Source: a virus | Taxonomy: Duplodnaviria; Caudoviricetes | Reading direction: 5' to 3' (one strand) | DNA: 58,899 bases | Virus record (IMG/VR): IMGVR_UViG_3300025083_000028 | Coordinates: 1-58,899 of that record | Shown: positions 54,308 through 55,579 of the stretch, piece by piece | How positions within the stretch are numbered: position 1 is the stretch's first letter | Layout of the letters: every line of letters begins with the position of its first letter | Notes under the pieces: model-generated | The model's input: only the letters and a program-made list of their open reading frames with translations | Databases searched by the model: none | What the model was told of the DNA's origin: nothing | Translations under genes and position numbers: made by a program

Positions 54308-54531
54308 TACTTTTTGATAATGTTATCGCCGTATAGCACTGAGTCAAGTGATCTGTCGTAGAAGTCTGCCCAAGTTTGCAGTTGTCTAACGTCGTCAATA
54401 GTTAATTGATACCACGCCGTGTGGCTCATCAATCTGTACTTTAAGTGTTTTGCGGTTTCGTATTGTTTCGCATTTGCATTTAGATTTTTTCGTAGTTCAG
54501 GAAATAACCTGTGGTAAAGTGATTTGCTCAT
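54307..54531 (-). CDS. Hypothetical protein
   Basis: 74 aa, starts about 27 nt downstream of motif copy 2. Confidence 0.65.
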   Translation of the reverse strand: MSKSLYHRLFPELRKNLNANAKQYETAKHLKYRLMSHTAWYQLTIDDVRQLQTWADFYDRSLDSVLYGDNIIKK

Positions 54532-54557
54532 AATTTAATTTTATTTAGTTTACGTTT

Positions 54558-54590
54558 ATATTATCCAATTGTATTCGTATTTAGTTTGTA
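54558..54590 (-). promoter_or_regulatory. Early-arm conserved motif copy 2
   Basis: atattatcc-aattgta-ttcgtatttagtttgta. Confidence 0.8.
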
Positions 54591-54591
54591 A

Positions 54592-54747
54592 TTAAACCAT
54601 CTCCTCAATTATACCAATTAACTCACTGATTATCAGTACAATACATGCCACTACAATATTGAAGGGTAGTAGTGCATACCCGCCAATTCTTACTACACTC
54701 TTCAGAATTGACACATAAAAATGTTTCTTTGCGTTCGGATATTTCAT
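54592..54747 (-). CDS. Small membrane protein (51 aa)
   Basis: MKYPNAKKHFYVSILKSVVRIGGYALLPFNIVVACIVLIISELIGIIEEMV; not in ORF track. Confidence 0.7.
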   Translation of the reverse strand: MKYPNAKKHFYVSILKSVVRIGGYALLPFNIVVACIVLIISELIGIIEEMV

Positions 54748-54750
54748 TAG

Positions 54751-54822
<72 letters not shown>

Positions 54823-54829
54823 TTAAGAT

Positions 54830-54895
54830 AACAGTAAGCACAATGCACTTCCGTAATGCCTCTCATGTCAACAAGGCACACATGTACTTACTGTT
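54830..54895 (-). ncRNA. Structured RNA motif copy A (unassigned)
   Basis: 13-bp closing stem, inner TGCC/GGCA stem, core TACGGAAGTGCAT shared with copy B. Confidence 0.55.
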
Positions 54896-54897
54896 TA

Positions 54898-54978
54898 GGG
54901 AACATAGCGGGATTCGAACCCGCGTTACCGTATTCCTGCCTCCGGAAGCTTTTCTCCGGCCATACCAAATTATGTTCC
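54898..54978 (-). ncRNA. tRNA-like RNA with 8-bp acceptor and canonical T-arm but aberrant D/anticodon arms
   Basis: GGAACATA/TATGTTCC; GCGGG-TTCGAAT-CCCGC; central CCGGA-GAAAAGCT-TCCGG. Confidence 0.65.
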
Positions 54979-55055
54979 TTGTGAGTTAGTGTGACAAATG
55001 GTCTCAGCTCTTAAATTGTCTCCTATTTCTCACTTCGCCAGCTATTCACTTATGT

Positions 55056-55116
55056 GTGTGTAATACACTTCCGTACGTTCACATATGCCCGTCGACAGTC
55101 GACACCACATACACAC
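55056..55116 (-). ncRNA. Structured RNA motif copy B (unassigned)
   Basis: GTGTGTA/TACACAC closing stem, TGTG, TGTC/GGCA stem, TACGGAAGTGTAT core. Confidence 0.55.
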
Positions 55117-55142
55117 CTAATTAAGCTACTCGTCTGACTTTG

Positions 55143-55334
55143 TTACTTTCTTCGCCACGATTTATGCACCGCAGCACTTACTTCTTGAGATACAATTTGC
55201 ACCTCGAGTACTTGTTTGTTTGCAATTATAGGTACGTAACTGTATTGTTGAGTTGTACTGCAATCAACACAGGTATTGTAACCTAGTTTGACTCTACCAA
55301 TTGGTATTATATTTTTACATTTACATTTTTTCAT
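55143..55334 (-). CDS. DksA/TraR-type C4 zinc-finger-like protein
   Basis: CKCKNIIPIGRVKLGYNTCVDC. Confidence 0.6.
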   Translation of the reverse strand: MKKCKCKNIIPIGRVKLGYNTCVDCSTTQQYSYVPIIANKQVLEVQIVSQEVSAAVHKSWRRK

Positions 55335-55340
55335 ACAAAT

Positions 55341-55373
55341 ATATTATCCAATTGAGTTCGTGTTTAGTTTGTA
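55341..55373 (-). promoter_or_regulatory. Early-arm conserved motif copy 3
   Basis: atattatcc-aattgag-ttcgtgtttagtttgta. Confidence 0.8.
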
Positions 55374-55579
55374 TAATCTTCTGCAGGTACATATCCAGCG
55401 TGAAGTTTCTCGATAGTTAAGGTTTGTATAGCACCGTGCACCGTGTTGAATGCTTCGTCGTCTAATTTTTCAAACTCTTCAATTCCGTCCATTGCCCATG
55501 CAATAGAGTCATACAATGTTTCTATAATGTAAGCCACCTGCACGTCGGCAACTTCTTCCATAATTTTCATTTTACTCAT
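55364..55579 (-). CDS. Hypothetical protein
   Basis: 71 aa, acidic. Confidence 0.6.
   Translation of the reverse strand: MSKMKIMEEVADVQVAYIIETLYDSIAWAMDGIEEFEKLDDEAFNTVHGAIQTLTIEKLHAGYVPAEDYTN

What the first reader, a model, noticed from the sequence alone, without database searches (positions are those of the whole stretch)
54830..55116. Two homologous copies of an unrecognised ~60-nt structured RNA interleaved with tRNA genes
Seen on the minus strand. Copy A (54830-54895): stem AACAGTAAGTACA/TGTGCTTACTGTT enclosing TGTG-TGCC-tTGTTGACatgaga-GGCA-t-TACGGAAGTGCAT. Copy B (55056-55116): stem GTGTGTA/TACACAC enclosing TGTG-gTGTC-gacTGTCGACg-GGCAt-atgtgaacg-TACGGAAGTGTAT. The closing stems differ in sequence yet both pair, while TGTG, TGTYGAC and TACGGAAGTGYAT are conserved, which is the signature of a functional RNA. 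Copy A sits tightly between the tRNA-like RNA and tRNA-fMet. Known: tRNA-linked HDV-like (theta) ribozymes exist in Bacteroidota phages, but I do not recognise this core as any ribozyme or riboswitch. Inference: a new processing ribozyme, protein-binding decoy or sRNA.
Basis: partly seen in the sequence, partly recalled or inferred. Interest (0 to 1): 0.78.

Follow-up and report, generated by a model that had tools for sequence, protein, structure and literature searches.

The report
New phage tRNA-linked structured RNA module
A marine phage carries two copies of an apparently undescribed, highly conserved folded RNA element that recurs in related phages beside tRNA and tRNA-like genes; what it does is still unknown.

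Summary
Both copies lie on the minus strand at the stated coordinates. They share an exact 14-nt block, TACGGAAGTGYATT, found twice in the window and in 0 of 100 shuffles.

They belong to a real family, which I call module M. I found 116 copies (70 distinct) in uncultivated marine viral and metagenome contigs. The fold has a variable closing stem P1, then TGTG(G), a helix P2, an exchangeable apical domain, and a near-invariant 3' bulge.

Covariation supports P1, P2 and P3: 14 of 21 pairs change on both sides, 94.2% of cells pair, and 0 of 500 shuffles reach this. On the opposite strand only 78% pair.

There is no Rfam 15 match and no match in GenBank phages. Nothing was found in 151 Flavobacteriaceae genomes searched.

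M caps helices of different carrier RNAs in one variable non-coding slot. In relatives the carriers include tmRNA-like tRNA-like domains. All 64 tRNAs within 500 nt lie on M's strand.

Function is not shown. My best guess, at about 0.4, is a recognition handle for a trans-acting factor on small RNAs released by tRNA processing. A ribozyme, an aptamer, a docking module, a processing signal and a DNA-level element remain open.

The parts
54830..54895 (-). Module M, copy A. It has a 13-bp closing stem P1, then TGTG, P2 (TGCC/GGCA) with a 14-nt apical loop, one extra T, TACGGAAGTGCATT, and the P1 3' strand. It is a free-standing hairpin 3 nt after the tRNA-like element and 7 nt before tRNA-Met.
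   Evidence: Sequence. Fold -26.2 kcal/mol, z = -3.73. R1 model 28.5 bits, E = 1.2e-5. The same P1 and leader context holds a type-1 interior in L359, L363, L368 and L389. The same apical loop, with P2 changed on both sides (TGTC/GACA), occurs in L131 and L161.
55054..55117 (-). Module M, copy B (type 1). It has P1 of 7-8 bp, TGTGG, P2, the P3 hairpin (TGTC-GACG-GGCA), a 3' linker, TACGGAAGTGTATT, and the P1 3' strand.
   Evidence: Sequence. R1 model 88.6 bits, E = 1.5e-25. Covariation of P1, P2 and P3 across the family.
55037..55138 (-). Carrier rod around copy B. It has an outer 5-bp stem, a conserved internal loop on both strands, and M at the tip. It starts 5 nt after the stop codon of the upstream ORF.
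   Evidence: Sequence and fold. The outer stem covaries in relatives, for example L168 against the window. The loop motifs occur in 24 and 26 of 38 sources.
54981..55033 (-). Second carrier hairpin, here without M at its tip. In relatives (L126, L129, L138, L143, L147, L166) the same hairpin is capped by M.
54898..54978 (-). tRNA-like element. It has a 7-8 bp acceptor-type stem, a GG-containing D-loop-like stretch with no D stem, a 6-bp hairpin with a 6-nt loop, and a canonical T arm. ARAGORN does not call it a tRNA.
   Evidence: Only its T arm matches an Rfam model (tmRNA positions 346-363, 17.7 bits).
54750..54822 (-). tRNA-Met (anticodon CAT), immediately downstream of copy A.
   Evidence: ARAGORN. 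Rfam tRNA 70.1 bits.
55143..55334 (-). Upstream ORF: a 63-aa protein with four cysteines and no family match. It marks the 5' border of the non-coding RNA slot.
   Evidence: No Pfam or PHROG match. Relatives lie next to M in 29 of 35 loci, and 62 viral loci encode one.
54592..54747 (-). Downstream 51-aa ORF that starts 3 nt after tRNA-Met. It marks the 3' border of the slot.
   Evidence: No terminator-like site in 54400-55500.

Best explanation
Module M is a self-contained folded RNA domain of about 45-65 nt. Phages of one marine lineage, probably infecting Flavobacteriia, place it at the tip of different carrier helices in one non-coding slot of an early, minus-strand operon.

The slot sits wall to wall between two ORFs and holds tRNA-Met plus tRNA-like elements, which in relatives resemble the tRNA-like domain of tmRNA. 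I infer that the RNAs are cut out of a polycistronic transcript by the host tRNA-processing enzymes. In the window, copy A would then be released as a hairpin of about 75 nt, bounded by the 3' end of the tRNA-like element and the 5' end of tRNA-Met.

The constant part of M is the junction: TGTG(G) on the 5' strand and TACGGAAGTGYATT on the 3' strand. This probably forms a short wobble-rich helix plus a 9-nt bulge. The bulge can form a two-pair mini-hairpin with a GGAA loop.

I read this constant junction as a sequence-specific recognition surface for a trans-acting factor, most likely a protein of the host or the phage. On this reading the RNAs act as decoys, sponges or recruiters, and the exchangeable apical domain and carrier modulate or diversify them.

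Shown: the family, its fold, its strand, its modularity and its genomic company. Inferred: transcription and processing, and binding of a partner.
For: Family and fold:
- 37 of 63 viral-contig pattern hits and 75 of 90 metagenome hits are members.
- There are 116 copies, 70 of them distinct.
- 14 of 21 pairs change on both sides, 94.2% of cells pair, and 0 of 500 shuffles reach this. Slid controls pair in 13-64% of cells.
- RNAalifold recovers P1, P2 and P3 independently.

Acts as RNA of the tRNA strand:
- 17% of paired cells are G-U, so only 78% pair on the opposite strand.
- All 64 tRNAs within 500 nt are on M's strand and none is opposite.
- There are no terminator-like sites, and the flanking ORFs abut the slot.

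The junction is under the strongest constraint:
- Searches anchored only on the 5' half recovered 21 viral and 75 metagenome members.
- All 21 viral members carry the exact 3' block.
- 70 of the 75 metagenome members do. Two have T to A at its first base, and three have its last T changed to C with a compensating A to G opposite.

Autonomy from any cis partner:
- The same junction caps at least five unrelated carriers: the rod, the second hairpin, the tRNA-Met leader hairpin, the interior of a tmRNA-like domain, and a pseudoknot-like element.
- The apical domain comes in six or more forms and can shrink to a 4-bp hairpin (L435).
- Interiors are swapped within one and the same carrier.

Weak hint of expression: short contigs covering the copy-B region are present in four metatranscriptome runs from four studies.
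Against: - No partner was identified. Neighbouring proteins have no recognisable RNA-binding family.
- The one concrete candidate I could name from the ACGGA-in-a-loop look, CsrA, is absent from the phage and from 81 of 81 Flavobacteriaceae genomes searched.
- M is dispensable for the lineage. Only 18 of 62 loci with the upstream gene carry it, and two of those (L445, L439) are deletion derivatives that lack part of the junction.
- An invariant 14-mer is equally typical of ribozyme and aptamer cores.
- Part of the P1 'covariation' could come from insertion into pre-existing hairpins. However, compensatory changes also occur within one context (L124 and L168 against the window).
- The RNA runs are assembled contigs. 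They cannot prove transcription or show ends.
- The host assignment rests only on 42.5% identity of the primase/helicase to Cellulophaga phage phi10:1.
Confidence: 0.4

Rival explanations
1. M is a new small self-cleaving or otherwise catalytic RNA that helps cut the RNA array or splits its carrier.
For: It has about 25 near-invariant nucleotides around a junction, with variable peripheral helices, which is typical of ribozyme cores. It keeps company with tRNA-Met, as theta ribozymes do (passages). Copy A begins 3 nt after the 3' end of the tRNA-like element.
Against: No hit to any ribozyme model in Rfam 15, even at E <= 10. The supported fold is a plain nested hairpin with a bulge, not the HDV-like double pseudoknot. 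Most copies sit at helix tips, far from any tRNA end. RNA-library contigs run through copy B uncut, for example an 89-nt contig spanning 55046-55134, though these may derive from DNA.
Confidence: 0.12
2. M is a cis-acting processing or stability signal. On this reading it is a hairpin recognised by a host endoribonuclease, or one that protects the 3' ends of the neighbouring RNAs after the tRNA-type cuts, as RNase III sites do in T7 early mRNA (recalled).
For: It lies in a tightly packed operon with no terminators. It sits 7-9 nt upstream of tRNA-Met in several contigs (window, L142, L162, L178, L359).
Against: Stability hairpins and RNase III sites do not need a 14-nt invariant strand. Many copies are interior caps of carrier RNAs rather than intercistronic. 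44 of 62 related loci manage without M.
Confidence: 0.15
3. M is an RNA-RNA docking or folding module. Its GGAA loop or bulge would make tertiary or intermolecular contacts that assemble the array's RNAs.
For: The invariant AC-GGAA-GT can form a GNRA-type mini-hairpin. M always caps helices of ornate multi-module RNAs.
Against: No constant receptor accompanies it, because the carriers are unrelated and copy A is a lone hairpin. The mini-hairpin has no covariation, because it never varies.
Confidence: 0.15
4. M is a small-molecule aptamer, for example a sponge for a signalling nucleotide, displayed on stable tRNA-like scaffolds.
For: A compact, highly conserved junction with variable periphery. 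The slot is hypervariable and accessory, as counter-defence loci tend to be.
Against: No similarity to any riboswitch in Rfam. There is no expression platform and no ligand clue. This is speculation.
Confidence: 0.07
5. The conservation is at the DNA level. M would be a recombination site or a small mobile palindromic element, whose hairpin look comes from inverted repeats.
For: Presence or absence and interior swaps at the same site. Identical junction sequence in many contexts.
Against: Pairing is strand-asymmetric, 94.2% against 78.0%. Internal helices P2 and P3 covary. Orientation is always that of the tRNAs, 64 to 0. M is confined to the RNA slot, with no other copy in the 58.9-kb genome. 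No recombinase or transposase turned up among the 24 window ORFs I scanned, all between 41120 and 55778; the rest of the window was not scanned.
Confidence: 0.08

Closest known systems
Theta (minimal HDV-like) ribozymes next to phage tRNAs (PMC10879173; passages read)
   Same: Small structured RNAs of about 50-60 nt in phage genomes, placed beside tRNA genes, with tRNA-Met among the commonest partners.
   Different: Theta ribozymes are nested double pseudoknots with a catalytic C in J4/2, and lie within 5 nt of the tRNA cleavage site. M is a nested hairpin with a bulge, has no conserved upstream pairing partner, mostly sits at helix tips, and hits no Rfam HDV model.
tmRNA tRNA-like domain (Rfam RF00023)
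   Same: In relatives the carriers of M align end to end with the 5' and 3' parts of the tmRNA model at 33-43 bits (E 1e-10 to 1e-14). They have a G3-U70-type acceptor stem and the T arm, and in L129 M sits inside such a domain.
   Different: These matches are below the gathering score of 47. The roughly 326-nt middle of tmRNA is replaced by 42-100 nt with no credible tag frame. M itself matches no part of tmRNA, and the window's own tRNA-like element has A3-U70 and matches only by its T arm.
tRNA-scaffolded small RNAs, such as the stable RNAs in the T4 tRNA cluster and the tRNA-linked hairpins of murid herpesvirus 68 (recalled, not checked here)
   Same: Non-tRNA small RNAs embedded in a viral tRNA array, presumably released by tRNA-processing enzymes.
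   Different: No sequence or structural relation was tested or is expected. The analogy concerns biogenesis only.
CsrB/RsmZ-type protein sponges (binding-site consensus recalled)
   Same: An ACGGA motif presented in a small loop closed by a short stem.
   Different: There is one site per module rather than many. CsrA was not found in the phage or in 81 of 81 Flavobacteriaceae genomes searched.
Candidate structured RNAs predicted from IMG/VR (PMC10690425; passages read)
   Same: Same data source and the same kind of object. That study reports 8495 candidate motifs from IMG/VR, some of them tRNA-like.
   Different: The motif lists are in supplements that I could not open. M may or may not already be among those unnamed candidates.

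Membership tests
Any Rfam 15 family | A covariance-model match over copy A or copy B | tested here: not met
   At the gathering threshold on the whole window, only tRNA-Met matched. At E <= 10 on 54500-55400, nothing overlaps either copy. Across 17 related loci (146 kb), only 10 tRNAs matched.
HDV-like / theta ribozyme | A nested double pseudoknot in which the 5'-most strand (P1) pairs with an internal strand | tested here: not met
   The comparative fold is P1 closing the element with coaxial P2 and P3. Sequences 5' of P1 differ among contexts, so no conserved outer strand exists.
HDV-like / theta ribozyme | Lies within about 5 nt of a tRNA end (paper passages) | tested here: not met
   Copy A starts 3 nt after the tRNA-like element. 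Copy B and most family members are interior caps of longer helices.
HDV-like / theta ribozyme | Self-cleavage that depends on a catalytic cytosine | not testable with these tools
   This needs an in-vitro cleavage assay.
tmRNA (asked of the carriers, not of M) | A tRNA-like domain with a G3-U70 acceptor stem and a T arm | tested here: met
   Met in relatives: L156 scores 42.6 bits and L129 35.0 bits, with the alignment shown. Not met by the window's own element, which has A3-U70 and only a T-arm match.
tmRNA (asked of the carriers, not of M) | An mRNA-like domain with a tag reading frame and pseudoknots, and a score above the gathering cut-off | tested here: not met
   All scores are below 47 bits and the middle of the model is deleted. 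ARAGORN calls no tmRNA in the window. It makes one call in L422, with an untypical tag.
CsrA/RsmA-sequestering RNA | The cognate protein is present in the host or the phage | tested here: not met
   0 of 1 phage record, 0 of 3 and then 0 of 81 Flavobacteriaceae genomes searched. The control genomes scored as expected. The host family itself is inferred.
Mobile palindromic DNA element or recombination hairpin | Strand-symmetric pairing, both orientations, and dispersal over intergenic regions | tested here: not met
   Pairing is 94.2% against 78.0% on the two strands. Nearby tRNAs are 64 on the same strand and 0 opposite. Only two copies occur in the genome, both in the RNA slot.

The most novel reading that the evidence does not exclude
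These marine phages run an RNA-based counter-measure system. Stable tRNA- or tmRNA-like scaffolds, cut out by the host's own tRNA-processing enzymes, would display a conserved 'warhead' (M) that captures or misdirects a host factor. That factor could be a defence nuclease or a component of ribosome rescue or RNA quality control. The exchangeable apical domains and carriers would be diversified in an arms race. A variant of the same reading is that M is a new class of small catalytic RNA.
Probability: 0.2. Interest if true: 0.9.

Novelty: new member of a known kind. Interest (0 to 1): 0.66.

Why it matters
Structured RNAs with about 25 near-invariant nucleotides and clear covariation almost always turn out to be ribozymes, riboswitches or specific protein-binding sites. 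This one matches no described family.

It recurs in an abundant group of uncultivated marine phages. It behaves as a portable module mounted on tRNA-like and tmRNA-like scaffolds in a hypervariable accessory slot. That makes it a well-defined target for experiments: about 60 nt, with natural minimal, swapped and deletion variants already in hand.

It also opens a view on a wider and apparently undescribed repertoire of phage tRNA/tmRNA-mimic RNAs. If the module binds a host factor, it would add an RNA-only strategy to what is known of phage-host conflict in Bacteroidota. If it is catalytic, it would be a new ribozyme class.

Tried and rejected
- **First collection scan was too loose.** Only three proved to be members.
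- **Bacterial and archaeal genomes gave only decoys.** The covariance model gave them at most 25.1 bits. About a quarter are one conserved protein-coding gene, which I recall as pyruvate:ferredoxin oxidoreductase; I did not test that.
- **GenBank phage records.** Only the tRNA-Met part of the region matched. A 68-nt type-1 module found nothing at E <= 1.
- **151 Flavobacteriaceae genomes.** One 25.2-bit hit, lying in an apparently coding stretch and lacking the 5' half. It is not a member.
- **CsrA-sponge idea.** Dropped because no CsrA was found.
- **Known 3D motifs, compared by eye with recalled consensus sequences.** The 5' strand has GG where a k-turn needs GA. The sarcin-ricin bulged-G motif lacks its GA partner strand. 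The UAA/GAN loop has a variable third A. The archaeal bulge-helix-bulge needs bulges of other sizes. None fits, and none was formally tested.
- **RNAalifold's alternative local hairpin over the 3' block.** Two natural variants break it: C in copy A, and T to A in L332 and L364. Both are compatible with the TGT/GYA helix.
- **Sequencing runs.** In the four RNA runs laid, no contig covered 54834-54885 (copy A). Contigs cannot show transcript ends or levels.
- **Promoter scan.** It uses the sigma-70 consensus and is not informative for a Bacteroidota host.
- **Neighbouring proteins.** Pfam and PHROG scans gave nothing RNA-related.
- **Other.** Earlier notes of this scan returned nothing.

Full report
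**What is in the window**

Read on the minus strand, the stretch 55138..54750 is non-coding. It is packed between a 63-aa ORF (55334..55143) and a 51-aa ORF (54747..54592). In order it holds:
- a 102-nt rod (55138..55037) whose tip is copy B (55117..55054);
- a 53-nt hairpin (55033..54981);
- a tRNA-like element (54978..54898);
- copy A (54895..54830);
- tRNA-Met (54822..54750).

The rod begins 5 nt after the upstream stop codon, and the downstream ORF begins 3 nt after the tRNA. There is no terminator-like site in 54400-55500. The window is a virus record of 58,899 nt estimated to be 93% complete. Its replication genes are phage-like. The closest isolates by primase/helicase are Cellulophaga phage phi10:1 (42.5% identity) and other phages of Flavobacteriia. 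The host assignment is therefore an inference.

Yes. The two copies share TGTG, a 4-bp inner helix and the exact block TACGGAAGTGYATT. That block occurs twice in the window and in 0 of 100 shuffles. With up to two mismatches the count (4) is no longer above chance (mean 2.0), so the exactness carries the signal. Copy A is a strong hairpin by itself (z = -3.73). Copy B is not (z = -1.91), and its minimum-energy fold differs from the comparative fold.

**The family**

- A scan of IMG/VR for TGTG, a gap, and the 14-mer gave 63 stretches. Reading them and scoring them with a covariance model (R1, built from 22 type-1 copies) shows that 37 are members and 26 are not. The 26 score at most 26.9 bits.
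- A scan anchored only on the 5' half gave 46 viral stretches. Of these, 21 are members, all already known and all carrying the exact 3' block; the 25 new ones have no model match.
- The same kind of scan in metagenome contigs gave 90 stretches, of which 75 are members at 69.7 bits or more and 15 are not.
- Three more variants came from loci fetched through the upstream gene.
- In all there are 116 copies, 70 of them distinct. Some metagenome and IMG/VR records are surely the same contigs.

**The fold**

From 5' to 3' the element reads:
- P1, a variable stem of 5-13 bp;
- an A-T pair followed by a bulged T on the 3' strand;
- a short helix TGT/GYA;
- G or GG;
- P2;
- an apical domain;
- the P2 3' strand;
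- a 9-nt bulge TACGGAAGT;
- the 3' strands of the TGT/GYA helix and of P1.

On 55 distinct sequences, 94.2% of cells pair and 14 of 21 pairs show changes on both sides. None of 500 column shuffles reaches the observed values, and sliding the partners gives 13-64% pairing. That alignment was fitted to the model, which favours the structure. However, RNAalifold run on the same model-fitted alignment predicts P1, P2 and P3 without being given the structure.

Within one and the same carrier, P1 shows compensatory changes (L124 and L168 against the window). The signal is therefore not only due to insertion into different hairpins. The AC/GT mini-hairpin with its GGAA loop never varies, so it is neither supported nor refuted.

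**Copy A is a true member**

Its model score (28.5 bits) barely exceeds that of decoys that merely contain the motif (26.9 bits). Context decides the matter:
- L359, L363, L368 and L389 carry a standard type-1 interior inside almost the same closing stem, with one compensated pair, and with the same leader to tRNA-Met.
- L345 and L370 do the same for the context of L131 and L161, which have copy A's apical loop and a P2 changed on both sides.

Interiors are thus exchanged within a constant frame.

**RNA rather than DNA**

17% of paired cells are G-U, so the opposite strand would pair in only 78.0% of cells. Every one of the 64 tRNA genes within 500 nt is on M's strand. 98 of 114 copies lie within 500 nt of a same-strand tRNA or T-arm motif, and 55 lie near tRNA-Met.

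Short contigs covering the copy-B region occur in four metatranscriptome runs from four studies. One RNA-library contig shows a relative that lacks copy A and tRNA-Met and has M on the second hairpin. These are assembled contigs and may contain DNA, so this is only a hint of expression.

**Modularity**

The same junction caps several kinds of carrier:
- the rod, as in copy B;
- the second hairpin, which is M-less in the window but M-capped in L126, L129, L138, L143, L147 and L166;
- a leader hairpin 7-9 nt before tRNA-Met, as in copy A;
- the interior of tRNA-like domains (L122, L129, L140);
- a pseudoknot-like element (L179).

The apical domain has at least six forms and can be a 4-bp hairpin (L435). 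L445 and L439 are deletion derivatives. Of 62 viral loci with a relative of the upstream gene, 18 carry M. tRNA-Met is present in 12 of the 18 with M and in 14 of the 44 without it. Some of these loci are cut by contig ends.

**Comparison with what is known**

- There is no Rfam 15 match at the gathering threshold or at E <= 10.
- The HDV-like/theta topology is not met.
- There is no match in 50,697 GenBank phage records.
- There is no member among the 120 genome-contig hits or in the 151 Flavobacteriaceae genomes searched.
- A full-text search found the 14-mer in no paper. The 10-mer occurs in 41 papers, and the ten listed are unrelated by title and abstract.
- The IMG/VR survey of candidate RNAs (PMC10690425; passages) may contain M among its unnamed motifs.

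**Mechanism**

What is shown is a portable, strand-specific, structurally constrained RNA domain. Its junction is far more conserved than its periphery, and it needs no constant cis partner. That pattern fits a recognition handle for a trans factor best, so I commit to that reading at about 0.4. Biogenesis would be by tRNA-type processing of the operon transcript; this is inferred from the packing and the absence of terminators. Catalysis, a processing or stability signal, RNA-RNA docking, ligand binding and a DNA-level role remain possible and are listed with their tests.

**Novelty**

As a sequence and structure family it is undescribed as far as I could search. As a kind, it belongs with small structured RNAs embedded in phage tRNA arrays. 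I therefore file it as a new member of a known kind and keep the bolder reading separate.

Noticed in passing
L156:1390-1480, L129:735-875, L133:126-201 (-), L127:436-545 (-), L123:4069-4150 (-); compare window 54898-54978 (-): Relatives encode 76-141-nt RNAs that align end to end with the 5' and 3' parts of the tmRNA model (33-43 bits, below the cut-off of 47). They have a G3-U70-type acceptor stem and the T arm, but only a 42-100-nt insert where the mRNA-like domain should be. These look like phage 'mini-tmRNA' tRNA-like domains. The 3' signature occurs in 17 of 38 sources. The window's own tRNA-like element has the same layout but A3-U70.
   Followed up: partly
window 54750-55138 (-) and the same slot in L419-L480: The slot between the four-cysteine ORF and the small downstream ORF is a hypervariable cassette of structured RNA modules. 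These include the rod loop motifs, the second hairpin, tRNA-like domains and others, shuffled and nested in different orders among relatives. None of them matches Rfam apart from the tRNAs.
   Followed up: partly
L123, L124, L126, L127, L133, L143, L144, L145, L158, L166, L169, L173, L180, L065 (near M): Another conserved non-coding element of roughly 130 nt recurs in 14 of 38 sources next to M or tRNA-Met. It is recognisable by a GATAAATGACAATACTAG-like core. It has no Rfam match at the gathering threshold in the 17 loci scanned, which include 8 of these 14 sources.
   Followed up: no
window 55143-55334 (-): A 63-aa protein with a CxC...CxxC pattern directly precedes the RNA slot. It does so in 29 of 35 M-bearing loci and has relatives in 62 viral loci. 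It has no Pfam or PHROG family. It could be functionally tied to the RNA array.
   Followed up: partly
window 54898-54978 (-): In the tRNA-like element, the hairpin in the anticodon-arm position has 6 bp and a 6-nt loop. ARAGORN does not call it a tRNA.
   Followed up: no
L422 (= contig of L122), about 1692 onward: ARAGORN calls the M-containing tRNA-like domain a tmRNA with the tag ERTEVYYIC*. This tag does not look like a usual degradation tag and is probably spurious.
   Followed up: no
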